From contig CAYPPF010000005.1 in NCBI GenBank assembly GCA_964412535.1, positions 4,190 to 40,968 on the forward strand: a DNA stretch of 36,779 bases, read 5' to 3'. Under the pieces are notes generated by a model. The model saw only the letters and a list, made by a program, of their open reading frames with translations. It searched no databases and had not been told where the DNA came from. This document shows, piece after piece, positions 9,429 to 28,879 of the stretch (position 1 is the stretch's first letter; each line of letters starts with the position of its first letter). The translations under genes and the position numbers were made by a program. Source of the stretch: an uncultured Gammaproteobacteria bacterium. Its GTDB lineage: Bacteria; Patescibacteriota; Patescibacteriia; Magasanikbacterales; UBA922.

Positions 9429-9998
9429 CTAGTCGAGAATGGCGTTGGGTTTGCAGGCGAACATTTCCAGGAAATTCATTGTGGCGCGCTTCATTGCTGA
9501 GCTGAGTTCAGGACTCATGGAGATGGCTTCAGCCTTTACATCTCTCATCAGCAACAGGTCGGCCAGAGTCTCCAGGTCACTTTCTTCCTGCTTGCGCTGG
9601 ACACCTTCTTCGTTCATGAGGTCGTTCAGACGAACCAGCGCTGTGAAGTAGAACGGGATTGCCGTGTCATCAGGCATGTCTCCGAGAGTGGGGTGACAGG
9701 CCACGGTAGCAAGCCAGTATAACAGGATTTCACCACTGTTTGTTGGCCAAACTACCTGTTCGCGCACCTGGTCTATCAGCCGCCTGAAGTAGCCCAAGCT
9801 GACGTCGTTGATGTTTTTTTCTTCCGCGATTTTGCGCCAGAGGCTACCTAGCTGGAAGTCGACAAGTAACACCAACTTGTCTTTTCCTCCGCTTCCCAGC
9901 ATTTGGGAGAGGTAGTTGAGAGTTCGGGTGGCACCCATACCTGGTGTGGCTTTACCTGCCATTTTTTTGAGGGCCTCTGTCAAAGTACTTGTCTTCAT
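9429..9998 (-). CDS. hypothetical protein, G+C-rich orphan gene (probable horizontal acquisition)
   Basis: 189-aa ORF with a strong SD (GAGGAGG, complement of 10003-10009) 5-6 nt before the ATG. Line 9541-9600 has 34/60 G+C. I recognised no family motif. Confidence 0.7.
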   Translation of the reverse strand: MKTSTLTEALKKMAGKATPGMGATRTLNYLSQMLGSGGKDKLVLLVDFQLGSLWRKIAEEKNINDVSLGYFRRLIDQVREQVVWPTNSGEILLYWLATVACHPTLGDMPDDTAIPFYFTALVRLNDLMNEEGVQRKQEESDLETLADLLLMRDVKAEAISMSPELSSAMKRATMNFLEMFACKPNAILD

Positions 9999-16299: not shown

Positions 16300-18069
16300 T
16301 TAGTTGCTTACTTTTTTAAGGTCTACTATTGTTAGTTGTAGTTCTCTATTGCCGTTCCACTCGTTTATGCTCATTTCAAACACTATATCAATTAAGTCTC
16401 CAGGATTTATCATCTTACACCAGTCTTTTTTGTCTCCAGCGTTTCCATTACACAAGTGCCAGCCAATAGTTTTTCTGATTTTACCAGATTTACTCTTTAT
16501 CATTATGCGCAAATGTTTTCCCTCTTGTCCAACTGGTTCTAAAGAGTGGATAGCAAGATTTTTGGAAAGATACTTTGGTTTTTCATTAGCTTGTCCAAAA
16601 GGTTGGAATTTATCCAAAATAGTATACAATTCCCAGTTTACATCATCTATATCTACTTCAGCATCAATTGCCAGGATGGGGAATAGTTCTTGTCCCGAAG
16701 TTTCTTCTTGAAACTTGGCAATCATTTTTTCTTTGAATTCTTCTAGTTTTTCTTTGTTTTTAAGGGTAAATCCGCAGGCCATTGGATGTCCTCCGAATTT
16801 TGCGAAAACCTCTGGCATTTCTTGCATGGCTTGGATTAAGTTAAATCCTTCTATACTTCGCCCTGAGCCAGTTATTTCGCCATTATTCTCTGCCATTATT
16901 AGGCTAGGTTTGTAGTATTTGTCTTTTATCCTTCCAGCAATCAACCCTATCACTCCAGTAGGCCATTCTTTTCCAAGTGCAAACAGTACTGGACTATCTT
17001 TTTCTATTTGTTCGTCTGCTCTTTTTATCAGGTCATCAGTAACCTTCTGTCGCTCCATGTTGTTTTGATTTAGTTCATATGCTAGCTCTGTTGCTTCGGT
17101 GGGACTTTCAGTCATTAGTAGGTTGTATGCAACATTAGCGTGGTTCATTCTTCCGGCAGCATTAATTCTGGGCGCTATTTGGAATCCGACAGTGTGTGAT
17201 ACTAATTCTTTTTTCTTTGTACCGTCTTGTTCCATTAATCGGGCCTCTAGGAGTAGTTTTTGCAGGCCAGTCCTCTGTGTTTTGTTTAATACAGTTAGAC
17301 CATACTTTGTCATTGTTCTTGATTCACCAGTAAGAGGGACCATATCAGCTATCGTGGCAATTGCTACCATATCTAGCATCCATTTTTCAAAACTTTCGTG
17401 GGTAGTGTCATCAACAAGACAAGGGTGTGTTTCCTTATGTCTTGCAAGGAGTCCTTGCATTAGCTTGAAGGCTACTCCACCACCAGCCAATCCTTTGTCA
17501 GGATATGGTTCATCAGGCATATTGGGGTGGATGATTGCAAAGGCAGGGGGGGTGACTTCAGGTATTGCGTGATGGTCGGTAATTATAACGTCAATACCTT
17601 TTTCATTAGCTGATTCCACTTCTTCTTTACTGCTGATCCCACAATCGCATGTGATTATGAGGTTGGTTTTTTCTTCTGCTAAGTTCTTTACAGTATTTAT
17701 ATTTAATCCATATCCATCAGTTTCACGATGGGGGAGGAATACACTTACTTCTTCTGCACCTAGTTTTTTCAAAGTAGACACTAGTATTACAGAGGCACAC
17801 ACTCCATCAGCATCATAGTCTCCGTGCACCACTATCTTTTCTTGCTTTTCAATTGCCTTTAGGATTCTATTCACGGCCTTTTCCATATCTTGGAGCAGGA
17901 ACGGATCGTGTATATCTTTAGAATAGTCTGGGTGAAGGAACTCATCTATTTGTTCTTGTGTGTGTATATTGCGATGATACAACAAATTAGCCACTGTTGA
18001 TGGCATTTCTGGGTGGTTGGCTAGGAATTCAGCCGGTGCATTGTCAAGTACTTTCCAGATTTTTTCCAT
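16300..18069 (-). CDS. recJ: single-stranded-DNA-specific exonuclease RecJ
   Basis: DHH-family motifs VHGDYDADGVCAS, ITCDCGIS and VIITDHH, the DHHA1 motif FGGHPMACGF, and a C-terminal OB-like domain. Confidence 0.93.
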   Translation of the reverse strand: MEKIWKVLDNAPAEFLANHPEMPSTVANLLYHRNIHTQEQIDEFLHPDYSKDIHDPFLLQDMEKAVNRILKAIEKQEKIVVHGDYDADGVCASVILVSTLKKLGAEEVSVFLPHRETDGYGLNINTVKNLAEEKTNLIITCDCGISSKEEVESANEKGIDVIITDHHAIPEVTPPAFAIIHPNMPDEPYPDKGLAGGGVAFKLMQGLLARHKETHPCLVDDTTHESFEKWMLDMVAIATIADMVPLTGESRTMTKYGLTVLNKTQRTGLQKLLLEARLMEQDGTKKKELVSHTVGFQIAPRINAAGRMNHANVAYNLLMTESPTEATELAYELNQNNMERQKVTDDLIKRADEQIEKDSPVLFALGKEWPTGVIGLIAGRIKDKYYKPSLIMAENNGEITGSGRSIEGFNLIQAMQEMPEVFAKFGGHPMACGFTLKNKEKLEEFKEKMIAKFQEETSGQELFPILAIDAEVDIDDVNWELYTILDKFQPFGQANEKPKYLSKNLAIHSLEPVGQEGKHLRIMIKSKSGKIRKTIGWHLCNGNAGDKKDWCKMINPGDLIDIVFEMSINEWNGNRELQLTIVDLKKVSN

Positions 18070-18070
18070 A

Positions 18071-18499
18071 CTATCTTCTGAAGAACTTTATTTTTTTGAA
18101 GTCCCAGTAGGAGTCAGCTAAGAATAGTGAGAACACTGCGAATACGAAGTTGAGGGCAGTAATCTTTTCTAAATAATTTTCTTGTGGATGAAGTTGTAGG
18201 GCGATCAAGGAAATGCCTAGCAACACCCAGTGGACAATTGGTCTTTTGAGGGAATTAACTCTTTCTTCCTCTCCTATCCTACCTCTTTCAACAAGACAGT
18301 AGATTGCATAGAAGATTGTCATTGGAATAAAAAAATACCACTGGTATTCCTGCATATCTAGATTCAGTTCTTGTGTAAAGATGTGGTAGGGGATAAAAAG
18401 AAGGAGGAGAAAGAAAAACAAGAATATCACAGCCATTTGGTAATGGTGGTGTGGTGAAAGATAGTGGTGCTTGTATGAGATGAATTTTTTCCAACGCAT
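18071..18499 (-). CDS. hypothetical membrane protein
   Basis: 142 aa with 4 hydrophobic segments. Tightly packed upstream of recJ. Confidence 0.6.
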   Translation of the reverse strand: MRWKKFISYKHHYLSPHHHYQMAVIFLFFFLLLLFIPYHIFTQELNLDMQEYQWYFFIPMTIFYAIYCLVERGRIGEEERVNSLKRPIVHWVLLGISLIALQLHPQENYLEKITALNFVFAVFSLFLADSYWDFKKIKFFRR

Positions 18500-18503
18500 A
18501 CCT

Positions 18504-18602
18504 TTAGTAGAACAAAGGCATGATAGTAAAGAAAATCATTCCCATGATTGCAATGACCCCTATTACTGTCCACACCATTTTGAACTTTTTGTTTCCCCAC
18601 AT
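18504..18602 (-). CDS. possible 32-aa single-TM micro-protein (below ORF-track cutoff)
   Basis: Hand translation gives MWGNKKFKMVWTVIGVIAIMGMIFFTIMPLFY*. It fills the gap between lepA and the 18499 gene. No SD, which is also true of most genes here. Confidence 0.25.
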   Translation of the reverse strand: MWGNKKFKMVWTVIGVIAIMGMIFFTIMPLFY

Positions 18603-18617
18603 AGATTTTTATGTTAA

Positions 18618-20405
18618 TTAACGTTTTAATACAGCTAAGTAAGCTTCAGTAGGTATGTCTACCTTTCCTTTGCCCATGCTTAGTAGTTTCTTTTTACCTT
18701 TTTTTTGTTTTTCTAAAAGTTTTCTCTTTCTTGTCACATCACCACCATATAGCTTGGCAGTAACATCTTTCCTGAGGGCTGACAATCTTTCTCCAGCAAT
18801 TACCTTTCCACCGACAGCAGCTTGTATCTTTAGTACGAATTGTTGTTTGGGTAGAGTTTCTTTCAAGGATTTGACTATATGTTTCCCTATTCTGAAAGCT
18901 TCATCTCTCCATACTAGGGTGGCCAGAGCTTCTACTTTTTCTTCTGACACTAGTATGTCCATTTTCACTACGTCAGTGGGTTCATATTGCTTGAATTCGT
19001 AATTCAAAGAAGCATAACCACTAGTTACTGTCTTTAGTTTATCATAAAAGTCAGTGATTAGCGAAGCCAAGGGTATTTCATAGTGTAGTATGGCTCTTTG
19101 ATGGGATCCGCTGCTTAGGTACTCGGTATTTAGGTACCTGCCTTTACGTTCTGATACCAGGCCCATTACGTTGCCAATATATTCTTCTGGGGTGATAATG
19201 TCCACGTTCATCCATGGTTCTTCAATTCCTTCTATGTGGTTAGGTTCTGGTAAATCTTGTGGGCTTTTTACCACTAACTTTTCTCCACCTGCTTTTGTCA
19301 CCTTGTATGCAACACTGGGTACTGTCACTATAATATGAAGACCAAACTCTCTTTTAAGTCTCTCTTGAAAAATATCCAGGTGCAACATCCCTAGGAATCC
19401 GCATCGAAAGCCAAAGCCAAGAGCTTGTGAGCTTTCTGGCTCGTATGCAAGGGCTGAATCACTTAGTTTTAGTTTGTCCATTGCTTCGCGCAGGGCAGAG
19501 TAGTCATCACCTTCTTTAGGGAAGATGCCGGCGAACACCATTGGTTTTACTTCCTTGTATCCAGCTAGGGCTTGTTTAGCAGGGTTTTTTTGACTGGTAA
19601 TAGTATCACCAACTCTTACCTCTTCCAGTTCTTTCAACCCAGTAACGATGTACCCAATCTGGCCATTTTCTAGTGTGTTGTCTTTTGTCAGCTTAGGAGA
19701 GTAATGTCCCACTTCCAGAGTCTCAGCTTCAGCTCCTGTTTTCATGAATTTGACCTTTTCTCCTTTTTTCATTTCGCCATCCATTACTCTAATAGAAGCA
19801 ACTACTCCTCGGTAGTCATCATATGAAGAGTCAAATATTAGTGCACTAAGATTTTTTTTATTACCTTCTTCTGGTGAAGGGATATCATCCATTACTTTTT
19901 GCAATATTTCTTCTACGCCCTCTCCGGTCTTAGCTGAACAAGTGAGAATATCTTCTTCTTTGCATCCTAGAAGATGGATAATCTCTGCCTTGGTTTTTTT
20001 TGCATCAGCATTTGGTAAATCAATTTTGTTTAATACTGGAACTATCTTTAAGTTCTGATCAATTGCAAGGTATAGGTTTCCAATTGTTTGGGCCTGCACT
20101 CCTTGGGTGGCATCAACTAGTAATATAGCTCCTTCTACTGCTGCTAAAGAGCGGGATACCTCGTAGTTGAAGTCAACATGTCCTGGGGTATCAATTAGGT
20201 TTAGTACATGGTCTTTGTATTTCATTCGTACAGGTTGTAGTTTTATTGTAATCCCTCTTTCTTGTTCCAGTTCCATTTGGTCTAATATTTGTTCTTTCAT
20301 GTCTCTTTTGTTCACTGTACCGGTCAATTCCAAGAAGCGGTCTGCTAAAGTAGACTTTCCATGGTCAATATGAGCTATGATACAGAAATTACGTGTATTT
20401 TTCAT
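18618..20405 (-). CDS. lepA: translation elongation factor 4 (LepA)
   Basis: NFCIIAHIDHGKSTLADR, LIDTPGHVDF, NKIDL and the LepA-specific C-terminal domain. Trimmed to the ATG at 20405 so it no longer overlaps the murJ stop. Confidence 0.95.
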   Translation of the reverse strand: MKNTRNFCIIAHIDHGKSTLADRFLELTGTVNKRDMKEQILDQMELEQERGITIKLQPVRMKYKDHVLNLIDTPGHVDFNYEVSRSLAAVEGAILLVDATQGVQAQTIGNLYLAIDQNLKIVPVLNKIDLPNADAKKTKAEIIHLLGCKEEDILTCSAKTGEGVEEILQKVMDDIPSPEEGNKKNLSALIFDSSYDDYRGVVASIRVMDGEMKKGEKVKFMKTGAEAETLEVGHYSPKLTKDNTLENGQIGYIVTGLKELEEVRVGDTITSQKNPAKQALAGYKEVKPMVFAGIFPKEGDDYSALREAMDKLKLSDSALAYEPESSQALGFGFRCGFLGMLHLDIFQERLKREFGLHIIVTVPSVAYKVTKAGGEKLVVKSPQDLPEPNHIEGIEEPWMNVDIITPEEYIGNVMGLVSERKGRYLNTEYLSSGSHQRAILHYEIPLASLITDFYDKLKTVTSGYASLNYEFKQYEPTDVVKMDILVSEEKVEALATLVWRDEAFRIGKHIVKSLKETLPKQQFVLKIQAAVGGKVIAGERLSALRKDVTAKLYGGDVTRKRKLLEKQKKGKKKLLSMGKGKVDIPTEAYLAVLKR

Positions 20406-20406
20406 A

Positions 20407-22020
20407 CTATATTTCATCCCCTCTATTAATTTCACCCTGAACATTGGCTAGTTTAAGCCATTTCTTTTTTAGACTTCTATTTAATCGCTTCATTTCCTCT
20501 AATTGAAGGAAATGAAGGATCAGGCCATATACTAGGAGACCAATTGTACCAGATATTGCTCCTTGACTCAAGATGCCCCAAAATCTAGTCATATCCACCA
20601 TCATTGACAGTGGTTGTTTGAGAACTTGGATTACTAAAGCCATTGCTAGGGCTGCTGCAGATATTTTGTACAGGGAGATGATTATTTTGCTCTCTCCAAG
20701 GGTTCCCAAGCTAGTTCGTAACCCAATCCATAGTAAAGACATTTGTAATATCATGGCTAGGGAAAATGCTAGTGCAAGTCCGCTAACACCCATTACATTT
20801 TTCAAATACATTGCAGCTAGTATGTTAGCTAGGGCAGCTACTAGACCTACTAGGAAGGGGGTCCATGTATCGTGTATGGCATAGAAGGTTCGTGCCAGAA
20901 GGGGAATCAAACATTGGGCAAACAAGGAGAGAGAGAAGAAGGCCAGAGTGTTGGCAGTGAGGACAGTATCCCCCCAATTAAATTGCCCTGATCCTAATAC
21001 CACCCTTACTATCTGAGCGCGTAAAAGTAGGAATATAATACTAAGAGGTATTATGAAAAATAATATTTGTTTTATTGTAGAAGACAGTTGGTTAATTATT
21101 TCTTCCTTTTTGTCTTCGGCTGCAAACTTGGCTAAAGTAGGAAAGGCAGCAATTGCAAAAGAAATTCCAATGATTCCAATAGGGAAGTATTGCAAGTTGC
21201 TTGCCAAATTGAATATAGCAATGCTTCCTGCTGTTAGCGTTGAGGCTAGTATTGTAATGACTAGGAGATTTATCTGGCTGGTTGCTAATCCTAGAGTACG
21301 GGGGATCATTAGCTTTCCAATCTTCCTCACATTTTTGTCCTTCCACAGGAGTAGAGGTTTGTACCTAAAGCCGTGATACACAAGAGAGGGTAGTTGAATA
21401 ACAAGGTGGAGAAGAGCTCCTAGTACTACCCCATATGCTAGTCCAGAAATACCGAATTTAGGGACAAGGAAAATAGCGCCGATAATAATACCAAGATTGT
21501 ACATTATTGGAGTGAGGGCATATACCAGAAAGTTTTTGAATGATTGCAATACCCCGCTCACAATACCGCTAATACCTAGTAGAACAGGACTAAGGTACAT
21601 TATTCTGGTTAGGATAATAGTCATCTTGAGTTTTTCTGGATCAAAACCAGGTACAACTAGTTCCATTAACTGTGGAGTGAAGAAAAATAATATTGAACAG
21701 ACGATTACAAGGGCAAGGGCAAGTATATTGAATATAGCACTGGTAACGCGCCATGCCTCTTCTTGATCCTTTACTAGAAGCTTCATAAAGATCGGGATAA
21801 AGCCAGCAGAAAGGGCTCCAACGATAATGAGGTTGTATACTAAATCAGGAATGCGGAAAGCAGCAAAGTATGTATCCAAAATATCACCAGCTCCAAATTG
21901 GTGTGCAAATATTCGATCCCGGACAATTCCTATTATTCGACTTATAAAAGACGCCACAGCTAGAACTAGGGCGGCGCCAGTGATGGATTTAGATTGGGAA
22001 GAAAATATTCTTTTTATCAT
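20407..22020 (-). CDS. murJ: lipid II flippase MurJ (MviN family)
   Basis: 537 aa with about 14 TMs. The N-terminus SRIIGIVRDRIFAHQFGAGDILDTYFAAFRIPDLVYNL is typical of MurJ. Confidence 0.9.
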   Translation of the reverse strand: MIKRIFSSQSKSITGAALVLAVASFISRIIGIVRDRIFAHQFGAGDILDTYFAAFRIPDLVYNLIIVGALSAGFIPIFMKLLVKDQEEAWRVTSAIFNILALALVIVCSILFFFTPQLMELVVPGFDPEKLKMTIILTRIMYLSPVLLGISGIVSGVLQSFKNFLVYALTPIMYNLGIIIGAIFLVPKFGISGLAYGVVLGALLHLVIQLPSLVYHGFRYKPLLLWKDKNVRKIGKLMIPRTLGLATSQINLLVITILASTLTAGSIAIFNLASNLQYFPIGIIGISFAIAAFPTLAKFAAEDKKEEIINQLSSTIKQILFFIIPLSIIFLLLRAQIVRVVLGSGQFNWGDTVLTANTLAFFSLSLFAQCLIPLLARTFYAIHDTWTPFLVGLVAALANILAAMYLKNVMGVSGLALAFSLAMILQMSLLWIGLRTSLGTLGESKIIISLYKISAAALAMALVIQVLKQPLSMMVDMTRFWGILSQGAISGTIGLLVYGLILHFLQLEEMKRLNRSLKKKWLKLANVQGEINRGDEI

Positions 22021-22021
22021 T

Positions 22022-22942
22022 TTAGAGCCACTTCTTCTTTTTCATTACAAGGACAACCATGAAAATGACTAGCAATAGTCCGACAAACATCATCCAGACC
22101 CATAAAGGGTTTTGAGCATATGGGAGTCCTGATATATTCATTCCATATATGCCTGACAAAAGGGTGAGAGGTAGCAAGGCCACAGACATTACTGTTAAGG
22201 CGCTAATTACCTTGTTGGTACGGTGATTGATTAAGGATTCTACTGTTACATGAAGGCCATTAACTGTATCTTTATATGTTTCAGTAATTGACCAAAGTTT
22301 GCTTAAATAATCATTAATATTGTCAAAATACAATGTTAGGTCTTCGTTAAGGAAAGGTTTGCGTATGTGTGAGAGATTGGCTACTAAATATCTTTGAGGA
22401 TCTAGTATCCTTCTTAGTTGTAGTACATTTCGTCTGTGTATGGCTAGTTCTTTCACTGTACCAGTATCTTGTTCTCCTGCATAGATTTCATTTTCAAGCT
22501 CAGAAATTTGTTTACCAATTTTGTCAATGATGGGTTGAGTGGTGTGGAACAATGCTTCAATCAAGCGGTATAGGAGGAAACCAGGACCTTCCTGCATCCA
22601 ATCAGCTTTTACTTTCCTATTTTTCATACAGCGGTAGAAAAAGTTCTTCATTTCTTTTGTTTTGGAGTGTTGGATAGTGATCAAGTAATTATCTCCAATA
22701 AATACATCCACTTCATGAGATCTTACTTTTTGGGCACTGGGGTTCCAAAGAGGGAAGTGAAAAACTAAAAATAAATAGTTTTTGTAAACATCTATTTTAG
22801 GTGTCTGAACCTCTCCTTGCAGATCTTCATAGTCCAAATGATGGAAATTGTAATTGGCCTTTAGGTATTTGAGAGCTTCATCGTCAAGCTTGTCTATGTT
22901 TATCCAAGTAAAGTCGCCTTGTTTCAAGGTTTTTATGGCCAT
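22022..22942 (-). CDS. corA: magnesium/cobalt transporter CorA
   Basis: 306 aa with two C-terminal TMs and the YGMN signature (SGIYGMNISGLPY). Confidence 0.9.
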   Translation of the reverse strand: MAIKTLKQGDFTWINIDKLDDEALKYLKANYNFHHLDYEDLQGEVQTPKIDVYKNYLFLVFHFPLWNPSAQKVRSHEVDVFIGDNYLITIQHSKTKEMKNFFYRCMKNRKVKADWMQEGPGFLLYRLIEALFHTTQPIIDKIGKQISELENEIYAGEQDTGTVKELAIHRRNVLQLRRILDPQRYLVANLSHIRKPFLNEDLTLYFDNINDYLSKLWSITETYKDTVNGLHVTVESLINHRTNKVISALTVMSVALLPLTLLSGIYGMNISGLPYAQNPLWVWMMFVGLLLVIFMVVLVMKKKKWL

Positions 22943-22946
22943 ATTA

Positions 22947-23642
22947 TTATTGCTTAATCTGCTCTATTGGCAGGTTTATAGTTAATGAAGAATAGTCAGT
23001 TCCTGGATCGTCTGGATCGTCTTCAGTGTATAGCATTCCGTCTATTTCTCCTAGACTAAATTTTAGTTCCCTTGTTCTGTCTGTCTTCTCACCCTCTTCA
23101 ATACTATACTTTCCTTTCCTCAGTTCAGTCTTGTAGTATTGGATAAAGAAGTGGGGTTCTGCAGTCAGGGAAGTCCATTCTATTTGCACTATATCTCTAT
23201 GATCAGCCACAGGCTCTTTCATTAATCGTACAAGATCATCCCATCCAGCCTTTTTTTCTATATGCACATCTCCATTTTCATCCGTTGTTTTTTCAGTAGC
23301 AACTTGCTTGTCTAGAACAAGAACAACTGGAGAGAGTATTAGTTTTGGTATGAATGCAGCTATTTCCAATCCACGCCCTTTGTCTTTCCCAGAAATGAAA
23401 GTAATTTTCTGTACATTTTCAGAATCATATACTGGAATGTTAGTGGGGAAGTGGTCTGGCACATTATCAAGTTTTTTAGGTCTTGGTCCTGCTGCGAATT
23501 TGATCAGGAGTATGCCAGCAATCAAAAAAATGACTATGCATCCGCAGCCAGTAAGACATGAGCGTTTTAGACACGAACGCTTTTTGCCTAATTCTTGAAT
23601 TGGCGGTTCCTTTATTTCAACTTGTTCTATATTGCGGCGCAT
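22947..23642 (-). CDS. hypothetical membrane-anchored protein
   Basis: 231 aa. Cys-rich N-terminal anchor (CLKRSCLTGCGCIVIFLIAGILLIKF) and a soluble domain with no recognised motif. Confidence 0.65.
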   Translation of the reverse strand: MRRNIEQVEIKEPPIQELGKKRSCLKRSCLTGCGCIVIFLIAGILLIKFAAGPRPKKLDNVPDHFPTNIPVYDSENVQKITFISGKDKGRGLEIAAFIPKLILSPVVLVLDKQVATEKTTDENGDVHIEKKAGWDDLVRLMKEPVADHRDIVQIEWTSLTAEPHFFIQYYKTELRKGKYSIEEGEKTDRTRELKFSLGEIDGMLYTEDDPDDPGTDYSSLTINLPIEQIKQ

Positions 23643-23777
23643 AAGGAAGACCTAATAAGCCCGTGAGATTAGTGGGCCCATCTTTATTCTTGAATATATC
23701 ATACCAGAAAATTTGTAGCTTGTATAGGTGAAGTATTAGTTTCTGTGATATACTATCCTATATTAATCAACCATATT

Positions 23778-25133
23778 ATGAAAATAAAATTTTGTGGAGC
23801 TGCTCGTGAGGTGACTGGCTCTTGCCATCTCTTGGAAGCAGGAGGTAGGAAGATATTAGTGGACTGTGGGATGTTCCAAGGTTCTGATTTCAATACTGGA
23901 AAGAATCACGATTCTTTTCCTTTTGATCCAAAAGAGGTTGACGTTCTCTTGGTTACTCATGCTCACCTGGATCATGTTGGTAGGATACCCAAGTTGATAA
24001 AAGAGGGGTTTACAGGCAACATATATGCGACTAAGGCCACTCGTGAACTAGCTAAGTTGATCTGGTCGGATGCACACCACATAATGAAGGAGAATAATAA
24101 GAGGTATAATACACCAATATTGTTTAGCGAGAGTGATGTCGCAATGGCATATGACCAGTGCCAAGGAGTAGGCTATGGTCAGACAATAGAGATTGATAAG
24201 GGGATTAGTGCTGTGTGGAAGGATGCTGGACATATATTTGGGGCTTCTTTCATAGAGGTAAGTGCAGAAGGAAAGAAGATTGCATTTTCAGGAGACATTG
24301 GTAATGAAGATGTTCCAATTCTCAAAGATACAGAACCATTAGATGATGATGTGGATGTTTTGCTTTGTGAATCCACATATGGGGACAGGATTCACGAAGA
24401 TATTGATACTCGCAGGGGTATAATACTAGATTTGATTAAAGAAGGTGCTGAAAAAGGTGGTACTATTATGATACCGGCATTCTCTTTGGAAAGAACTCAG
24501 GAATTACTATATGAACTAAACTTACTTAGTGAACATGACAAGGTTCTTCCTAAAATTCCAATGTTCTTAGATAGTCCGTTAGCTATTAATGCTACTGAAG
24601 TATACAAAGAATATCCAGAATACTATGACGAAGCAGCTGCTAAGCTGCACATGGTGGGGGATGATTTTTTTGACTTCCCAGGACTCAAGTTCACATACAA
24701 TCGTGAAGAATCAAAAAAAATTAACCACATGCGTGGATCCAAGCTTGTAATGGCAGGAGCAGGAATGATGAATGGAGGAAGAATAGTACATCATGCTTTC
24801 CGCTATCTCCCAGACCCAGCTTCCACCCTTCTCATTGTCGGATATCAGGCTCAAGGAACTTTAGGGAGAAGATTATATGAAGGGGCTAATCAAGTAAAGA
24901 TATTTGGCGAAGATGTTGATGTAAGGTGTACAGTAAAGGCTATTGGAGCTTTGTCTGCACACGGAGACCAGAAAAAGTTGGTAAAGTGGGTGGGTAGTGG
25001 AAAGAAAGTACCCAAGAAAGTGTTTTGTGTTCATGGAGAAATTCATGCAGCAACAGAACTAGCTCACAGGATACGGGACAAATACAAGACAGAGGCCCTT
25101 ATCCCAGAATATGAAGAAGAAGTGGAAATATAG
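23778..25133 (+). CDS. beta-CASP family metallo-beta-lactamase ribonuclease (CPSF73/RNase J-like)
   Basis: MBL motif THAHLDHVGRIP, then DAGHIFGAS, ESTYGDR, beta-CASP/RMMBL region, C-terminal SAHGD and VHGE. Trimmed to the ATG at 23778. Confidence 0.85.
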   Translation: MKIKFCGAAREVTGSCHLLEAGGRKILVDCGMFQGSDFNTGKNHDSFPFDPKEVDVLLVTHAHLDHVGRIPKLIKEGFTGNIYATKATRELAKLIWSDAHHIMKENNKRYNTPILFSESDVAMAYDQCQGVGYGQTIEIDKGISAVWKDAGHIFGASFIEVSAEGKKIAFSGDIGNEDVPILKDTEPLDDDVDVLLCESTYGDRIHEDIDTRRGIILDLIKEGAEKGGTIMIPAFSLERTQELLYELNLLSEHDKVLPKIPMFLDSPLAINATEVYKEYPEYYDEAAAKLHMVGDDFFDFPGLKFTYNREESKKINHMRGSKLVMAGAGMMNGGRIVHHAFRYLPDPASTLLIVGYQAQGTLGRRLYEGANQVKIFGEDVDVRCTVKAIGALSAHGDQKKLVKWVGSGKKVPKKVFCVHGEIHAATELAHRIRDKYKTEALIPEYEEEVEI

Positions 25134-25144
25134 CTATAAATAAC

Positions 25145-25179
25145 AAAAAACTGCTCACATGGAGTAGTTTTTTGTTTTT
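25145..25179. terminator. bidirectional terminator (RNase gene on plus, large RNA on minus)
   Basis: AAAAAA-CTGCTC-ACATG-GAGTAG-TTTTTTGTTTTT. Confidence 0.65.
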
Positions 25180-26071
25180 CTCTACCCACCTGTGTAGATG
25201 AGTATAGAAGTTGTGGCGCCCTATTAAACAACGGGCGCCAGTGTTTTTCAGAATGAATGGGTGGAATGAGCAGAGGGTCGGGGGTTGGACAACCGTAGTC
25301 GTCCGCCCCCCTTCCCAAAAAATGAGTGGTGGGGTGTAGGCTTTGCACGGGCTGGCTATATACCCCGCGAGCCTGGGAGAACCCCCGCCCTTCCCTAGCC
25401 AGGTTAGGGAGACGTGTTGTTCCTTTCACAGTGTTTATATTCAGCTTACTCCCCAGCTGAAGACACTGTGCTCTCGGAACGTAGCGGCTGTCTGACCTTG
25501 AATTGTTGGTCAGTACATTGAGGTGTGCCCGAAGTGGCAAAACCTCAACCGCTTGCCCCCAACCAATGGGGGGCTCGGTAGAGTGGGGTTACCGGAGACC
25601 CCCACTTGCTCATCGTAGGGACGGCGCTCAGTCATCCAGCGCAATGTGCCCACGATGGAGGAACCCATCTGTGCAAATCCGGAAGTTCCCCAACGCATCG
25701 GCCGGGAGAGAAGGACATCCTCCCCCAACACCACCACACGGTCTTTCGTCCTGCCGCTGCCAGTCAAGTTAAGGTTTCCCCCCACCGCCGTACGAAATAT
25801 ACTTCGTCCGCATTTTGGAGTACTCACCCGCTTATGACATGGTCAACCAGGGCTTTACCGTGCGCTCCACCGCAATGGGCTGCATACAGGTTCCAAGGTC
25901 TACCACCCAGATCCTGGACCGATAGTCCAAAAAGATCTTGTAGTTATCCTAGTCCCGTTACCAGTCCGTGCGATGCCGGCTGAAGACAATTATTGTTGTC
26001 TGCAATCGGCGTCGCATGTGCGACGCGCGTGTAAGGTTCGGTCAGATTGTACTAGAAAGTACATCTGACAA
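25145..26071 (-). ncRNA. candidate large (about 0.9 kb) structured ncRNA, class unknown
   Basis: A perfect promoter lies at 26078-26106 and a terminator at 25145-25179. Line 25561-25620 has 37/60 G+C, against 17/60 in line 26281-26340. Only short overlapping Arg/Pro/Gly-rich ORFs occur, on both strands. Several perfect local hairpins are present (26041-26069; 26009-26026; 25984-26001; 25215-25239). Confidence 0.5.
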
Positions 26072-26077
26072 TAGGGG

Positions 26078-26106
26078 AGTATAGCAGATTTTGATAGTTT
26101 TGTCAA
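26078..26106 (-). promoter_or_regulatory. consensus sigma70 promoter (minus strand) of the large RNA locus
   Basis: The minus strand reads TTGACA (26106-26101), exactly 17 nt, TATACT (26083-26078). Confidence 0.65.
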
Positions 26107-26165
26107 GGGGTTATGTGTTAATATAGCATATTTTTGGCTAAAATAAGGTAAATCTGGCTCTAAAA

Positions 26166-26198
26166 GGCTCTACTCTTGTTAGAGCCTTTTGTTTTTTT
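26166..26198 (+). terminator. hairpin plus T-run (terminator-like), partly inside direct-repeat copy 1
   Basis: GGCTCTA (26166-26172) / TAGAGCC (26180-26186), then TTTTGTTTTTTT. No obvious plus-strand gene lies upstream of it. Confidence 0.4.
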
Positions 26199-26211
26199 GG
26201 GGTGTGGATAA
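26179..26211 (+). repeat. 33-bp direct repeat, copy 1 (left boundary of the two-gene cassette)
   Basis: TTAGAGCCTTTTGTTTTTTTGGGGTGTGGATAA, identical to 27399-27431. It ends in a perfect DnaA-box 9-mer (26203-26211). Confidence 0.9.
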
Positions 26212-26217
26212 TTAGTA

Positions 26218-26246
26218 TTGACAGCGTATCATTTATGGTATATAGT
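26218..26246 (+). promoter_or_regulatory. sigma70-type promoter of the cassette
   Basis: TTGACA (26218-26223), 17-nt spacer, TATAGT (26241-26246). Confidence 0.6.
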
Positions 26247-26272
26247 ATACAGTATAAACTATATACCATAAA
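26232..26272. promoter_or_regulatory. perfect 15-bp inverted repeat (candidate operator or 5'-UTR hairpin)
   Basis: TTTATGGTATATAGT (26232-26246) and ACTATATACCATAAA (26258-26272), 11 nt apart. It covers the -10 box and ends 2 nt before the ATG at 26275. Confidence 0.6.
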
Positions 26273-26274
26273 GT

Positions 26275-27033
26275 ATGAAGACTGATACTAGACAAAAAAT
26301 GTTTAAATTTATAGAAGAAAAGGGACAAGTAGCACCTAAAGAAATTGTTGATTTTATTGGTTTTAGTGCACCAGCTGTTTTCCGTCAATTAAAAAAATTA
26401 ATTGATGAGGGAAAAATACAAAAAACAGGAAGCCCTCCTCACGTGCTATATCACTTACCAATGTCACCAAAAGAGCTGGCTGTTCAGCCGGCAATTAGCT
26501 GGACTTCTTCATTGACACCACCTGAATTGGAGCCAGATGACCACTGTCAAACCAGGGATGTATTCCAAGCCAGGCACGGTAAGTTACCAAAAGATCTTGG
26601 TAGTGTTATAAAAGAAGAACAATTAGTTTTTTTACTGTCAGCAGTAATCGGCGAAATAGGGAACAATTCTTTTGATCACAATTTGGGTAATTGGCCTGAT
26701 ATGCCAGGGGTGTTTTTCCGGATTGATTTTAAAAAGAGAGTCATTCTTTTGGCAGACAGAGGACAGGGGGTCTTGACCAGCTTACAAAAAGTAAGACCAA
26801 ATATTCCTAATCACAGAGAGGCAATAAAGATCGCCTTTACAGAAATATTATCAGGTCGAATGCCAGAACATCGAGGGAATGGGTTGAAGTTTGTAAGGCG
26901 GGTAATTGAGGAAAACAAGCTGCTGTTAAGGTTTTATTCTGGGTCAGCTAAGTGTATAATACAAAATGGTAAAACAAAATTTTTAGATTCTGACAAAAAT
27001 ATAAAAGGCACTGTAGCCGTGATAGAATTTTAA
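26275..27033 (+). CDS. winged-HTH domain fused to a GHKL (HATPase_c, RsbW/SpoIIAB-like) ATPase/kinase domain
   Basis: The N-terminus (FKFIEEKGQVAPKEIVDFIGFSAPAVFRQLKKLIDEGKIQK) looks like a MarR/ArsR-type wHTH. The C-terminus carries an N-box (EIGNNSFDH), a G1 box (DRGQG) and a G2 box (GNGLKF). Confidence 0.75.
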   Translation: MKTDTRQKMFKFIEEKGQVAPKEIVDFIGFSAPAVFRQLKKLIDEGKIQKTGSPPHVLYHLPMSPKELAVQPAISWTSSLTPPELEPDDHCQTRDVFQARHGKLPKDLGSVIKEEQLVFLLSAVIGEIGNNSFDHNLGNWPDMPGVFFRIDFKKRVILLADRGQGVLTSLQKVRPNIPNHREAIKIAFTEILSGRMPEHRGNGLKFVRRVIEENKLLLRFYSGSAKCIIQNGKTKFLDSDKNIKGTVAVIEF

Positions 27034-27043
27034 TTTTAATAAT

Positions 27044-27319
27044 ATGAAATTAGAACTTAAAAAATTCGGTACAACTTTAAGCTCCCGGCCTGCTGCGAAA
27101 GAGGCGTGGGCAGTAACGCGTGCTTATATTTTAAAAGACAAGCAACCCGGAGAAAAAATAGAAATTGATTTTGATGGTGTACAAGTTTTAACTCCATCTT
27201 GGGCTGATGAGTTCATCTCTTCACTTAAACAAGAACATCCAAATGATGTGGTTCTTCTTCCGTCTGACAATGCTTCAGTAAAAATGTCGCTTGAGTTTGT
27301 TGGAAAAGAATCAAATTGA
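27044..27319 (+). CDS. STAS-like small protein (DUF4325-type)
   Basis: 91 aa. SSRPAAKEAW ... IEIDFDGVQVLTPSWADEFISSL resembles the STAS/anti-anti-sigma fold signature as I recall it for DUF4325. It starts 10 nt after the GHKL gene. Confidence 0.7.
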   Translation: MKLELKKFGTTLSSRPAAKEAWAVTRAYILKDKQPGEKIEIDFDGVQVLTPSWADEFISSLKQEHPNDVVLLPSDNASVKMSLEFVGKESN

Positions 27320-27340
27320 TTAGAGTTGACAAAATAATAA

Positions 27341-27370
27341 AAACCACCAGTAATAGGCTGGTGGTTTTTT
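27341..27370 (+). terminator. intrinsic terminator of the cassette
   Basis: AAACCACCAG-TAATAGG-CTGGTGGTTT followed by TTTT. Confidence 0.7.
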
Positions 27371-27398
27371 ACTGTGCCTTGGTTATATATGGGGTTTA

Positions 27399-27431
27399 TT
27401 AGAGCCTTTTGTTTTTTTGGGGTGTGGATAA
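27399..27431 (+). repeat. 33-bp direct repeat, copy 2 (right boundary of the cassette)
   Basis: Identical to 26179-26211. Here the 5' arm of the hairpin is missing, so this copy is not a terminator. It contains a DnaA-box 9-mer at 27423-27431. Confidence 0.9.
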
Positions 27432-27447
27432 ATGTGGTTGTAAATGG

Positions 27448-27476
27448 TTGCTAAGTGTTTCAGAGTGGTATATAAT
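27448..27476 (+). promoter_or_regulatory. mraZ (dcw cluster) promoter
   Basis: TTGCTA (27448-27453), 17-nt spacer, TATAAT (27471-27476). Confidence 0.6.
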
Positions 27477-27484
27477 GGAAGTAC

Positions 27485-27504
27485 GTGGGGAAAAGTGGGG
27501 AAAA
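27485..27504 (+). promoter_or_regulatory. tandem MraZ-box-like repeats
   Basis: GTGGGGAAAA occurs twice in tandem (27485-27494 and 27495-27504), just downstream of the -10 box. MraZ is known to bind GTG[GT]-containing direct repeats at about 10-nt spacing upstream of its own gene. Confidence 0.6.
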
Positions 27505-27535
27505 TGCTTGTCTTCCTACTTTAGCAAAGACAACT

Positions 27536-27967
27536 ATGTTTATCGGTGAATACACCCATAATTTAGATGAAAAGGGACGCTTGGCTGTACCTAAAAAGTT
27601 TAGGGCTGAGCTGTCTAAAGGAGCAGTTGTTACCCGCGGTTTGGACAACTGCTTGTTTCTGTACACTAAAATTGAATGGAAAAAGCTTGCTGATAAGTTA
27701 GCTGGCTTGCCATTTTCACAAGCAAACTCTAGAGCCTTTGCCCGTTTGATGTTGGCTGGGGCTATGGACGTAAAGACAGACAAACAAGGTAGGGTAATAC
27801 TTCCTGAATATCTGCGCAGCTTTGCTGGTCTCAAAAAGAACATAATCGTTGCAGGTCTATACAACCGCCTCGAGATCTGGGACCAGAAGAAGTGGGCAGA
27901 TTACAAAAACAAGACTGAAAGTGAGAGTAGTGCAATTTCTGAACAAATGTTTGAGTTGGGAATCTAA
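27536..27967 (+). CDS. mraZ: division/cell-wall cluster transcriptional regulator MraZ
   Basis: MFIGEYTHNLDEKGRLAVPKKFR ... DKQGRVILPEYLR shows the two SpoVT/AbrB-like halves. Trimmed from GTG 27485 to ATG 27536. Confidence 0.93.
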   Translation: MFIGEYTHNLDEKGRLAVPKKFRAELSKGAVVTRGLDNCLFLYTKIEWKKLADKLAGLPFSQANSRAFARLMLAGAMDVKTDKQGRVILPEYLRSFAGLKKNIIVAGLYNRLEIWDQKKWADYKNKTESESSAISEQMFELGI

Positions 27968-27979
27968 TCTGTCTGTTAT

Positions 27980-28879
27980 ATGAAGCATGTACCTGTTTTG
28001 ATTAAAGAGGTGATTGATGGCTTGGAACTAAAGCCAGGTGATAGTGTGGTTGACTGCACTCTAGGAGATGCTGGTCATGCAGAAGAGATTTTGAACACTA
28101 TTGAACCTGGGCGACTTCTGGGAATTGATGCTGATCCTGAGGCTGTCCTACGTGCTAAGCAGTATTTATACAATTTTGGTGAAAGAGTGGAGTTTGTTAG
28201 AGACAACTTTGTAAATTTAAAACAAATAATAGAAAAAAATGATTTTACGCCAATTAATGCCATTTTGTTTGACCTGGGTTGGTCTAGCCCGCAGTTTGAG
28301 GAGCGGCGCAGAGGTTTTAGCTTTTATAAAGCAAGTGACCCTCTAGACATGAGATACAGTGGTGGCTCTGAGTTAGAGAGTGCTGCAGATTTGGTTAATA
28401 ATTGGGATAAGGATGATTTGGCAAAGATATTTAGAGAGTGTGGAGAGGAAAAATTAAGTAGAGAGATAGCAGAAGGGATAGTGGAGAAGAGAAAACAGGG
28501 TGAGATAGAAAAGGTGAGTGAGCTGGTGGAAATCATTTTACAAATTTATAGAGAAAAACTTAACACAGACAAGGAAATTCCTTGGATCGGTGGCTTGCAT
28601 CCTGCTACTAAAGTATTCCAAGCTTTGAGAATGGCGGTTAATGATGAATTGGGTGTATTGGAAAAGGTTTTACCCCAGGCAGTTGATGTACTGGCTCCTG
28701 GTGGGAAAATAGCAGTAATATCCTTTCATTCAGGAGAGGATAGGATAGTGAAGCATTTTTTCAAGGGTAGGGATGATGTGAAGGTTATAAATAAAAAGCC
28801 GATTATCGCTGGCGAGGAGGAGATTAAGTCTAATCCTAGAGCTAGATCAGCTAAATTAAGAATAGTGGAGAAAATATGA
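27980..28879 (+). CDS. rsmH: 16S rRNA (cytosine1402-N4)-methyltransferase RsmH (MraW)
   Basis: HVPVLIKEVIDGL, DCTLGDAGHAEEIL, FDLGWSSPQ, SFHSGEDRIVK, NPRARSAKLR. Confidence 0.95.
   Translation: MKHVPVLIKEVIDGLELKPGDSVVDCTLGDAGHAEEILNTIEPGRLLGIDADPEAVLRAKQYLYNFGERVEFVRDNFVNLKQIIEKNDFTPINAILFDLGWSSPQFEERRRGFSFYKASDPLDMRYSGGSELESAADLVNNWDKDDLAKIFRECGEEKLSREIAEGIVEKRKQGEIEKVSELVEIILQIYREKLNTDKEIPWIGGLHPATKVFQALRMAVNDELGVLEKVLPQAVDVLAPGGKIAVISFHSGEDRIVKHFFKGRDDVKVINKKPIIAGEEEIKSNPRARSAKLRIVEKI

What the first reader, a model, noticed from the sequence alone, without database searches (positions are those of the whole stretch)
25145..26071. A 0.9-kb G+C-rich, non-coding locus with a perfect promoter and a terminator: candidate large structured RNA of unknown class
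**Transcription unit.**
- The minus strand carries TTGACA-17 nt-TATACT (26106-26078).
- About 925 nt downstream is a hairpin plus U-run terminator (25145-25179).

**Composition and coding.**
- The interval is far more G+C-rich than its surroundings: 37/60 in line 25561-25620 against 17/60 in line 26281-26340.
- It holds only short, mutually overlapping Arg/Pro/Gly-rich ORFs on both strands.
- In AT-rich genomes, local G+C enrichment is a classic signature of structured RNA.

**Structure.** Perfect or near-perfect hairpins are frequent:
- GUCAGAU-GUAC...GUAC-AUCUGAC at the predicted 5' end (26041-26069).
- GCGUCGC/GCGACGC (26009-26026).
- AGACAA/UUGUCU (25984-26001).
- GGCGCCC/GGGCGCC (25215-25239).
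- A GGGAAGGG(C/G)GGGG-like motif occurs twice.

**Class.** I could not find the hallmarks of RNase P (GGAAAGUCCGGGC / ACAGAANCCGGCUUA), tmRNA (tRNA-like ends), SRP RNA (GGAA-capped helix with AGCA), rRNA, or group II introns (GUGYG start, domain V). The size class matches the rare giant bacterial RNAs (GOLLD, ROOL, OLE), but I cannot assign it to any of them. It lies back-to-back with the repeat-flanked GHKL/STAS cassette.
Basis: partly seen in the sequence, partly recalled or inferred. Interest (0 to 1): 0.8.

Follow-up and report, generated by a model that had tools for sequence, protein, structure and literature searches.

The report
Orphan 0.9-kb structured RNA gene candidate
A 0.9-kb G+C-rich stretch in a Candidatus Magasanikbacteria (CPR) genome looks like a separately transcribed, strongly folding, non-coding RNA gene, but it matches no known RNA family and has no detectable relative, so its structure and function cannot yet be confirmed.

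Summary
Window 25140-26071 (minus strand) is 56% G+C in a 40% G+C genome. It has a near-perfect extended -10 promoter (TTGACA-17-TGcTATACT, 26106-26078) and ends at a bidirectional terminator (25142-25176).

It is non-coding by every test run:
- No frame is open under any stop-codon reassignment.
- There is no 3-base periodicity.
- A six-frame translation found no protein relative among 1.84 billion representatives.

It folds much better than shuffles (z -5.4 for the core, -10.6 with its ends). G+C-rich coding cassettes of the same genome do not (z -0.9 to -2.5). No Rfam 15 family matches, even at E<=10.

It is an orphan. All 11 related lineages sampled lack it. Most have a 90-325 nt spacer between the beta-CASP gene and the next gene. 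Degenerate-pattern scans of genome, metagenome and viral collections found nothing. Only identical copies from the same population turned up, and they rule out misassembly.

It appears to be a self-contained ~1-kb insertion between the beta-CASP stop codon and that gene's ancestral terminator. The best reading is a lineage-specific structured ncRNA gene of unknown function. No covariation test was possible, so the "giant ornate RNA" label remains unproven.

The parts
26078..26106 (-). Sigma-70-type promoter with extended -10: TTGACA (26106-26101), 17-nt spacer ending in TG, TATACT (26083-26078). The predicted start is near 26071 (inferred).
   Evidence: 11 of 12 matches, TG present; the pattern, one mismatch allowed, occurs 12 times against 1.2 expected, and the target's copy is exact. 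TTGACAAAA also occurs at the tRNA-Phe promoter and at the promoter-like site upstream of the 7215-7530 locus.
26041..26069 (-). 5'-terminal hairpin GUCAGAUGUAC-UUUCUA-GUACAAUCUGAC with a 1-nt bulge, starting about 2 nt after the predicted start.
   Evidence: pair probabilities 0.98-0.99.
25177..26040 (-). G+C-rich body of the candidate RNA. The core 25200-26030 is 56% G+C. Thirty-two helices of at least 4 bp with mean pair probability >=0.8 are predicted across the whole unit (25140-26071). Stops occur in all six frames and there is no period-3 signal.
25736..25863 (-). Best-defined predicted multi-branch domain (RNA positions 209-336). It is closed by GCACGGU/ACCGUGU and contains an 11-bp helix and a 9-bp hairpin.
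   Evidence: mean pair probabilities 0.94-0.98. This is a single-sequence prediction only.
25419..25553 (-). Two adjacent predicted branched domains (RNA positions 519-589 and 592-653) made of stacked hairpins.
   Evidence: mean pair probabilities 0.95-0.99. Prediction only.
25287..25304 (-). Hairpin GGACGAC-UACG-GUUGUCC. The UACG loop is closed by C-G, which makes it a UNCG-type tetraloop (from general knowledge).
   Evidence: pair probability 1.00.
25142..25176 (.). Bidirectional intrinsic terminator (15-bp stem, T-runs on both sides). It ends both the candidate RNA and the convergent beta-CASP gene (23778-25133, + strand).
26107..26160 (-). A+T-rich stretch upstream of the promoter. It forms the right-hand end of the ~1-kb insertion.
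   Evidence: comparison with spacers of relatives. The boundary is inferred.
26161..26191 (+). Plus-strand terminator hairpin followed by T7 and GGGGTGTGGATAA. It occupies the position of the beta-CASP terminator in relatives, so it is probably the ancestral terminator and marks the right border of the RNA insertion. Its 3' half begins the 36-nt direct repeat that flanks the GHKL/STAS cassette.

Best explanation
The interval is a self-contained, lineage-specific gene for a non-coding, highly structured RNA of about 930 nt. The inferred mechanism is as follows. RNA polymerase starts at a consensus extended -10 promoter and transcribes the minus strand from about 26071. It stops at the bidirectional terminator shared with the convergent beta-CASP gene, near 25140. 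The transcript is not translated. It folds into a 5' clamp hairpin and a chain of about 30 stable helices arranged in several branched domains. I think it most likely acts in trans as a stable structural RNA, serving as a scaffold or decoy for protein or nucleic-acid partners. This would resemble other large bacterial RNAs whose biochemical role is still unknown. The whole unit (terminator, RNA, promoter; about 25134-26160) appears to have been inserted between the beta-CASP stop codon and that gene's original terminator, in a spacer that is short in related genomes. Shown here: non-coding character, promoter and terminator signals, excess folding energy, absence from relatives, and genuine presence in the population. 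Inferred: that it is transcribed, that the fold is the functional form, and its role.
For: Promoter and terminator:
- One search finds both signals.
- The same promoter type is 10-fold enriched in the window and lies upstream of tRNA-Phe and of other discrete units.

Non-coding:
- Each frame carries 8-14 stops, and no stop-codon reassignment opens a frame.
- The period-3 signal is 1.2, against 2.9-14.5 for nine... [coding regions tested: eight] including the G+C-rich ones.
- The ORFs have no Pfam hit.
- Exhaustive phmmer of the six-frame translation against 1.84 billion representatives returned only the locus's own two spurious ORFs. Both are singleton clusters.

Structure:
- z = -10.6 for the whole unit and -5.4 for the core, with 0 of 80 shuffles as stable.
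- G+C-rich coding cassettes give z -0.9 to -2.5 and the beta-CASP gene gives -0.2.
- 428 of 932 nt lie in pairs with probability >=0.8.

Not an assembly artefact:
- The same sequence with the same junctions appears in independent assemblies of four samples (L003, L084, L085, L086).

Insertion:
- Where mraZ follows the beta-CASP gene in relatives, the spacer is 140-325 nt and consists of terminator, TGTGGATAA box and mraZ promoter.
- Window hairpin 26161-26191 occupies the position of that terminator.
Against: - No relative of any kind was found, so there is no conservation and no covariation. The fold is a single-sequence prediction.
- All 11 related lineages lack the element, so it is dispensable for the group.
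- Folding z-scores are equal on both strands.
- No expression data are available.
- Other G+C-rich islands in this genome are orphan protein-coding cassettes with the same promoter and terminator layout. The layout by itself is therefore not RNA-specific.
- Foreign G+C-rich DNA can fold well without being selected to do so.
Confidence: 0.5

Rival explanations
1. Transcribed but functionless remnant of horizontally acquired G+C-rich DNA. A foreign fragment landed in a recombination-prone spacer next to a terminator. It sits downstream of a promoter, and its hairpin content is incidental or inherited from whatever it was in the donor.
For: - The element is absent from all relatives sampled and lies in a spacer that is variable. 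L001 has a Cys-rich secreted-protein gene there, L005 and L009 have other G+C-rich non-coding stretches, and L008 has tRNAs.
- The adjacent GHKL/STAS pair is also a recent insertion with 36-nt direct repeats.
- Small G+C-rich hairpin elements do move in these genomes: part of L005 7351-7510 recurs at L004 13027-13102.
- No conservation of the element could be shown.
Against: - No donor was found. There is no match in phage or plasmid collections, in GTDB species genomes, in JGI metagenomes or in viral contigs.
- The promoter is a perfect native-type promoter in the right place and orientation, paired with a terminator.
- The folding excess is much larger than in the genome's other G+C-rich islands.
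- The sequence differs at only one base, over 745 nt of overlap in one of four assemblies; the other three are identical.
Confidence: 0.27
2. Decayed member of the genome's G+C-rich orphan protein cassettes. It was once a small protein-coding gene like 9429-9998, 34487-34882 or 35100-35678 and is now a pseudogene.
For: It has the same layout as those cassettes: a consensus extended -10 promoter, a G+C-rich body, a terminator, and no Pfam or PHROG family. Because those genes are orphans, the lack of protein relatives does not exclude a pseudogene of such a gene.
Against: - Every frame has 8-14 stops.
- Local 240-nt windows show no period-3 signal (0.5-1.1 in five of six), which frameshifted coding sequence would retain.
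- Folding z is -5.4 against -0.9 to -2.5 for the intact cassettes.
- Such heavy decay fits poorly with an intact perfect promoter and terminator.
Confidence: 0.08
3. Cis-acting or antisense regulatory unit for the convergent beta-CASP (RNase J-like) gene. Convergent transcription, or pairing of the complementary 3' ends at the shared terminator, would tune beta-CASP expression. The long structured body would serve mainly to stabilise the transcript.
For: - The arrangement is convergent with a shared 35-nt bidirectional terminator.
- Two other lineages (L005, L009) also carry G+C-rich, ORF-free units directly downstream of, and convergent with, the same gene.
Against: - Overlap with the beta-CASP transcript is limited to the terminator.
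- Most relatives manage without any such unit.
- The three units share no sequence.
- A 900-nt structured body is unnecessary for this role.
Confidence: 0.08
4. Highly divergent member of a known RNA family (RNase P, tmRNA, group I or II intron, OLE, GOLLD, ROOL, HEARO and others) that escapes the models.
For: CPR bacteria are known for divergent stable RNAs (general knowledge). The size is compatible with ORF-less group II introns or with giant RNAs.
Against: - cmscan against all 4227 Rfam 15 families with permissive filters at E<=10 gave only short junk matches at the terminators.
- Nothing reached the gathering score.
- ARAGORN found no tmRNA or tRNA-like element.
- The gene neighbourhood fits none of these families.
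Confidence: 0.04

Closest known systems
Large 'ornate' bacterial RNAs of unknown function: OLE, GOLLD and ROOL (cryo-EM structures in PMC12286853; ROOL described in PMC5737381)
   Same: Size class of 600-900 nt. A stand-alone non-coding transcript. Dense predicted secondary structure with many branched domains. No known biochemical role.
   Different: No match to their covariance models. No tRNA or prophage neighbourhood of the kind recalled for GOLLD and ROOL, and no OLE-associated protein genes. Those families are defined by many homologues with covariation. This RNA has none and is confined to one population.
Candidate structured RNAs found by screening long G+C-rich intergenic regions in A+T-rich genomes (GC-IGR/DIMPL approach: PMC6429828, PMC8632094, PMC8723152)
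   Same: It has exactly the signature those pipelines select: a long intergenic region whose G+C content is well above the genome mean.
   Different: Those pipelines accept a candidate only after homologues are aligned and covariation is seen. This locus fails at the homologue-collection step.
The window's own G+C-rich orphan cassettes (9429-9998 minus, 34487-34882 plus, 35100-35678 plus)
   Same: A consensus extended -10 promoter, a G+C-rich body, an intrinsic terminator, no family assignment, and a position between core genes.
   Different: Those have one open frame, period-3 signal (2.9-6.9) and near-random folding (z -0.9 to -2.5). The target has no frame, no periodicity and z -5.4.
Other G+C-rich, ORF-free, strongly folding units in Magasanikbacteria: window 7215-7530 and 7590-7775, L009 7365-7905 and 8070-8235, L005 7545-7935
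   Same: G+C-rich against an A+T-rich genome. Native consensus-type promoter signals where scanned (window and L009), and terminators. z from -3.9 to -8.5. No Rfam family at gathering score; the window 7150-7800 and L009 loci were also negative at E<=1 (L005 was not scanned at that level). The L009 and L005 units lie downstream of the same beta-CASP gene.
   Different: They are shorter (166-541 nt) and share no detectable sequence with the target or with one another.

Membership tests
GOLLD, ROOL, OLE, HEARO and raiA (large bacterial ncRNA families in Rfam) | Match to the family covariance model (sequence plus consensus secondary structure) | tested here: not met
   cmscan of 25050-26200 on both strands against all 4227 Rfam 15 models at E<=10 listed none of these families. 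The whole window at gathering score gave only two tRNAs.
GOLLD, ROOL and OLE | Characteristic neighbourhood: tRNA clusters or prophage for GOLLD and ROOL, OLE-associated protein genes for OLE (recalled from the literature) | tested here: not met
   The neighbours are a beta-CASP hydrolase gene, an HTH-GHKL gene, a DUF4325 gene, mraZ and mraW. There is no tRNA within 17 kb. The adjacent proteins gave no clear phage family: only one PHROG of unknown function (E 2.6e-11) and one weak PHROG match for the GHKL protein.
RNase P RNA, tmRNA, SRP RNA, 6S RNA and rRNA | Match to the Rfam model; for tmRNA, a tRNA-like domain and tag reading frame | tested here: not met
   No such match at E<=10. ARAGORN finds no tmRNA in the window.
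Group I and group II introns and known self-cleaving ribozymes | Match to the catalytic-core covariance models | tested here: not met
   No match at E<=10. No intron-encoded protein or flanking exon context is present.
Conserved structured ncRNA (any new family in the Rfam or R-scape sense) | Homologues in other genomes with covarying base pairs | tested here: not met
   No homologue was found in 11 related lineages or about 1 Mb of fetched loci by nhmmer and blastn. None was found by 18 degenerate 24-nt patterns in the viral collection, 12 in metagenome contigs and 6 in genome contigs. None was found by six-frame translation searches. The searches are limited: no full nucleotide homology search of public metagenomes was possible.
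Independent transcription unit | Promoter and intrinsic terminator in the correct order and orientation | tested here: met
   These are sequence signals only. Transcription itself cannot be tested with these tools.
Protein-coding gene or pseudogene | Open frame, 3-base periodicity, or protein relatives in any frame | tested here: not met
Repeat or MITE-like mobile element | Further copies in the genome, terminal inverted repeats, target-site duplication | tested here: inconclusive
   There is no second copy in the window or in the fetched loci, and no terminal inverted repeats. Only 37 kb of this genome is available.

The most novel reading that the evidence does not exclude
The locus is the first sighting of a new class of large structured RNA in CPR bacteria. 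More broadly, it may be one example of a previously undescribed phenomenon: Magasanikbacteria genomes carry a repertoire of lineage-specific, rapidly turning-over, G+C-rich structured RNA genes. These would be driven by native consensus-type promoters and would insert at terminator-proximal hot spots such as the beta-CASP/mraZ spacer. Three unrelated examples lie at that one site, in the window, L005 and L009, and two more lie elsewhere in the window.
Probability: 0.2. Interest if true: 0.75.

Novelty: new member of a known kind. Interest (0 to 1): 0.5.

Why it matters
Very few bacterial non-coding RNAs approach 1 kb, and each one found so far (OLE, GOLLD, ROOL) has turned out to be structurally remarkable. 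None is known from the CPR/Patescibacteria, which make up a large share of bacterial diversity and have tiny genomes where 1 kb of non-coding DNA is expensive. If this RNA is expressed and folded, it is a new large RNA with no relatives. It would also hint that these organisms hold a hidden, fast-evolving pool of structured RNA genes that homology-based discovery pipelines cannot see. If it is only a transcribed remnant of foreign DNA, it still marks a recombination hot spot next to the division and cell-wall (mraZ) cluster.

Tried and rejected
Known RNA family. Rfam 15 at gathering score and at E<=10 gave nothing. ARAGORN found no tmRNA or tRNA-like element.

Protein-coding or pseudogene.
- The ORFs have no Pfam hit.
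- A concatenated six-frame pseudo-protein against 5.8 billion proteins gave no hit at E<=10.
- The same idea run exhaustively against 1.84 billion representatives returned only the locus's own spurious ORFs.
- No stop-codon reassignment (TAG, TGA or TAA read-through) opens a frame. I tried this because the window carries a tRNA with a CUA anticodon.
- There is no period-3 signal.

Synteny. Beta-CASP homologues were fetched from 11 related lineages. None has the RNA.

Direct searches for relatives.
- blastn in distant mode against phage and plasmid collections gave no match.
- Degenerate back-translated patterns were scanned in the viral (18 patterns), metagenome (12) and genome (6) collections, and none was confirmed.

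Link to the GHKL/STAS cassette. Rejected: the pair sits next to rmuC in relatives, with no such RNA beside it, and it is flanked by its own 36-nt repeats here. PADLOC gave only weak HTH-domain matches.

Common origin with the other G+C-rich units (L005, L009, window 7215-7775). Shared k-mers, Smith-Waterman against shuffles and nhmmer were all negative.

Strand assignment from folding energy or G-U counts. Uninformative.

The repeated GGGAAGGG motif as a functional signal. It is at chance level. I ran no further search on it.

Small ORFs with a Shine-Dalgarno sequence on the RNA strand. None is convincing. Native genes here lack Shine-Dalgarno sequences anyway, so this test is weak.

Not attempted. 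A covariance model built from the single sequence was judged too weak to be worth the calls.
Full report
**1. What is there**

The window comes from a Candidatus Magasanikbacteria (CPR/Patescibacteria) genome. The best relatives of its beta-CASP protein are 61-76% identical, and those that carry a source name are called Magasanikbacteria or Patescibacteria.

Overall G+C is 40.2%. The interval 25151-26100 is the longest G+C-rich island, peaking at 61%.

On the minus strand, TTGACA-17 nt-TATACT lies at 26106-26078, preceded by TG. That is 11 of 12 consensus positions plus an extended -10. About 930 nt downstream is a 15-bp hairpin with T-runs on both sides (25142-25176). It also ends the convergent beta-CASP gene at 23778-25133.

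The promoter signal is meaningful in this genome. The pattern TTGACA-N14-TGnTAnnnT, with one mismatch allowed, occurs 12 times against 1.2 expected. Copies lie upstream of tRNA-Phe and of small cassettes. The extended form TTGACAAAA occurs five times against 0.9 expected. Three of those five are the target, the tRNA-Phe promoter and another G+C-rich ORF-free unit.

**2. Coding or not**

- Only overlapping Arg/Pro/Gly-rich ORFs of up to 158 aa exist, on both strands, and none has a Pfam family.
- Each of the six frames carries 8-14 stop codons. Reading through TAG, TGA or TAA never opens the region.
- The period-3 signal is 1.2 for the region and 0.5-1.1 in five of six local windows. The eight coding regions tested in the window give 2.9-14.5, and that set includes three G+C-rich ones.
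- A concatenated six-frame translation found nothing among 5.8 billion proteins.
- An exhaustive HMMER search of 1.84 billion representatives returned only two proteins, of 158 and 85 aa. These are gene-caller ORFs from this very locus and form singleton clusters.

A frameshifted relative of any known protein is therefore excluded as far as these databases reach. A recently decayed orphan gene is made unlikely by the missing local periodicity.

**3. Structure**

The whole unit folds to -395.6 kcal/mol against -325 +/- 6.7 for dinucleotide shuffles, giving z = -10.6.

Without the terminator and the 5' hairpin, the 831-nt core still gives z = -5.4. None of 80 shuffles reaches the observed energy.

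Controls from the same genome set the scale:

| Sequence | z-score |
|---|---|
| beta-CASP coding sequence | -0.2 |
| Three G+C-rich protein cassettes | -0.9, -1.1, -2.5 |

The partition function places 428 of 932 nt in pairs with probability >=0.8. These form 32 helices, including a 128-nt multi-branch domain (25736-25863), two branched domains in 25419-25553, and a C-UACG-G tetraloop hairpin.

Folding does not distinguish the strands: z is -5.4 on both. The strand assignment rests on the promoter and terminator. All of this is single-sequence prediction.

**4. Known families**

cmscan against all 4227 Rfam 15 models found only two tRNAs in the window at gathering score. With permissive filters at E<=10, only short chance matches to the terminator hairpins appeared in 25050-26200. 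ARAGORN finds no tmRNA.

Membership in GOLLD, ROOL, OLE, HEARO, raiA, RNase P, tmRNA, SRP, rRNA, group I or II introns and the known ribozymes was therefore tested and not met.

**5. Relatives and genomic history**

The gene order CorA - hypothetical - beta-CASP - mraZ - mraW is conserved in L002, L004, L005, L006, L011 and L088-L092.

The table shows what follows the beta-CASP gene in each relative.

| Loci | What follows the beta-CASP gene |
|---|---|
| L002, L004 (and L090-L092, same spacer sequence), L006, L011 (and L088/L089, same spacer sequence) | 140-325 nt spacer, then mraZ |
| L093, L094 | about 90 nt spacer, then uvrB |
| L001 | a small ORF, then a Cys-rich secreted-protein gene |
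| L008 | two tRNAs |
| L005 | about 740 nt of G+C-rich, ORF-free sequence, then mraZ |
| L009 | about 1 kb of G+C-rich, ORF-free sequence, then uvrB |
| L007, L010 | downstream region not examined gene by gene; no mraZ match, and no match to the RNA |

The short spacers before mraZ consist of the beta-CASP terminator, a TGTGGATAA box and the mraZ promoter.

In the window the spacer is 2.35 kb. The plus-strand hairpin 26161-26191, followed by T7-GGGGTGTGGATAA, occupies the place of the ancestral terminator. The RNA unit, with its own terminator and promoter (about 25134-26160), therefore looks like an insertion between the stop codon and that terminator. This is an inference.

The HTH-GHKL/DUF4325 pair (26275-27319) is a second, independent insertion. 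It is flanked by a 36-nt direct repeat (26176-26211 and 27396-27431). In other Magasanikbacteria the pair lies next to rmuC, with no such RNA nearby.

None of the 11 related lineages, nor about 1 Mb of fetched loci, contains anything similar to the RNA by nhmmer or blastn.

Wider searches were also negative:
- blastn against phage and plasmid collections found nothing.
- Eighteen degenerate 24-nt patterns derived from the sequence were scanned against the viral collection. Twelve of them were scanned against 241 million metagenome records and six against 185,579 species genomes. None gave a confirmed match.

The only other occurrences come from the same population in independent assemblies of four samples:

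| Locus | Window coordinates covered | Difference from the window |
|---|---|---|
| L003 | 24875-26190 | none |
| L084 | 16986-25878 | within the RNA, one SNP at 25598; elsewhere scaffold gaps and a few differences beside a gap inside the beta-CASP gene |
| L085 | 24875-27449 | none |
| L086 | 25882-28372 | 1 mismatch and one 20-nt gap overall; the part overlapping the RNA aligns in full |

These copies exclude a chimeric assembly but carry no comparative information.

**6. Interpretation**

The best-supported reading is a lineage-specific, independently transcribed, non-coding RNA gene whose product is unusually rich in stable structure (confidence about 0.5).

The main rival is a transcribed but unselected remnant of foreign G+C-rich DNA in a recombination hot spot (about 0.27). 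It cannot be excluded without expression data or homologues. Points in its favour:
- The site is clearly variable.
- G+C-rich hairpin elements do move in these genomes.
- The window holds other G+C-rich orphan cassettes.

Points against it:
- The promoter and terminator pair is native-type.
- No donor was found.
- The folding excess is well above that of the other G+C-rich islands.

Three weaker rivals remain: a decayed orphan protein gene, a convergent-transcription regulator of the beta-CASP gene, and a very divergent member of a known family.

**7. Comparison with what is known**

In size and layout the closest analogues are OLE, GOLLD and ROOL (PMC12286853, PMC5737381). The locus has exactly the signature exploited by screens of G+C-rich intergenic regions (PMC6429828, PMC8632094, PMC8723152).

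It works like those RNAs only in the loose sense of being a large stand-alone structured transcript. It is not a member of any of them. It also fails the criterion that made them accepted families, which is homologues with covariation.

**8. Verdict**

This is a real and unusual locus and a credible candidate for a novel large ncRNA. It is an orphan, so its structure and function remain unverified. Interest is 0.5. If transcript and structure are confirmed, or if the pattern of unrelated G+C-rich RNA units at the same site in L005 and L009 proves general, the interest would be considerably higher.

Noticed in passing
window 3669-3741 (minus): ARAGORN calls a tRNA with anticodon CUA (amber suppressor, labelled 'Pyl'). 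Rfam scores it as a tRNA at 58 bits. An extended -10 promoter-like site lies upstream at 3948-3920. The genes in the window look intact under the standard bacterial code, so its role is unclear.
   Followed up: partly
window 7185-7535 (minus) and 7590-7775 (minus, directly downstream of tRNA-Phe at 7774-7848): Two more G+C-rich, ORF-free, strongly folding stretches (z -7.5 and -6.8). The first has its own promoter-like site (7569-7541, one mismatch to the extended -10 pattern) and a terminator-like hairpin (7185-7212). Neither matches an Rfam family, even at E<=1. Both are candidate unknown small or medium RNAs.
   Followed up: partly
window 9429-9998 (minus), 34487-34882 (plus), 35100-35678 (plus): Three G+C-rich (48-53%) small gene cassettes. 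Each has a consensus extended -10 promoter, a terminator, one open frame and period-3 signal, but no Pfam, PHROG or PADLOC family. The third looks like a lipoprotein. They show that G+C-rich islands in this genome are not all RNA.
   Followed up: partly
window 26176-26211 and 27396-27431, flanking 26275-27319: A 36-nt direct repeat (97% identical) brackets the HTH-GHKL and DUF4325 (STAS-like) gene pair. The repeat consists of the 3' half of a terminator hairpin, a T-run and GGGGTGTGGATAA. In other Magasanikbacteria the pair lies next to rmuC (L095-L098). Contigs of the same population break at 26190 and 27449, which suggests a presence/absence polymorphism.
   Followed up: yes
window 27423-27500 and the equivalent spacers in L002, L004, L006, L011: A conserved architecture lies upstream of mraZ. 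It consists of TGTGGATAA (the reverse complement of the DnaA-box consensus TTATCCACA), a TTGCTA/TTGCGT-17-TATAAT promoter, and tandem GTGGGG-N4-GTGGGG repeats that resemble MraZ binding sites.
   Followed up: partly
L009 7365-7905 and 8038-8240 (minus); L005 7351-7935: In two other lineages, other G+C-rich ORF-free units lie immediately downstream of, and convergent with, the same beta-CASP gene. The L009 unit has the promoter TTGACAaaaggctttttttaTGcTATATT and z -8.5. They have no Rfam family at gathering score (L009 also negative at E<=1) and no similarity to the target or to each other.
   Followed up: partly
window 25383-25397 (minus) versus L004 7416-7430 (plus; the same in L090-L092): There is an exact 15-nt match, TAGGGAAGGGCGGGG, between the candidate RNA and the orthologous beta-CASP/mraZ spacer of a relative. 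In the relative it sits between the terminator T-run and the TGTGGATAA box. L005 has GGAGGAAGGGCGGGCG at the same place. It could be chance (about 0.4 such matches are expected over all related loci), but the position is striking.
   Followed up: partly
L005 7351-7510 versus L004 13027-13102: Part of a G+C-rich hairpin-forming stretch downstream of the beta-CASP gene in L005 recurs at an unrelated position in L004 (nhmmer E 8e-12). This points to small mobile G+C-rich repeat elements in these genomes.
   Followed up: no
L002 7358-7416: A tandem array of about eight copies of TATATTGT lies directly after the beta-CASP stop codon.
   Followed up: no
window-wide gene starts (for example 340, 2151, 23778, 27980): Native genes start with ATG preceded by A+T-rich sequence with no Shine-Dalgarno motif. 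The G+C-rich cassette at 35100 has GGAGG upstream. This is consistent with a foreign origin for the G+C-rich cassettes.
   Followed up: no
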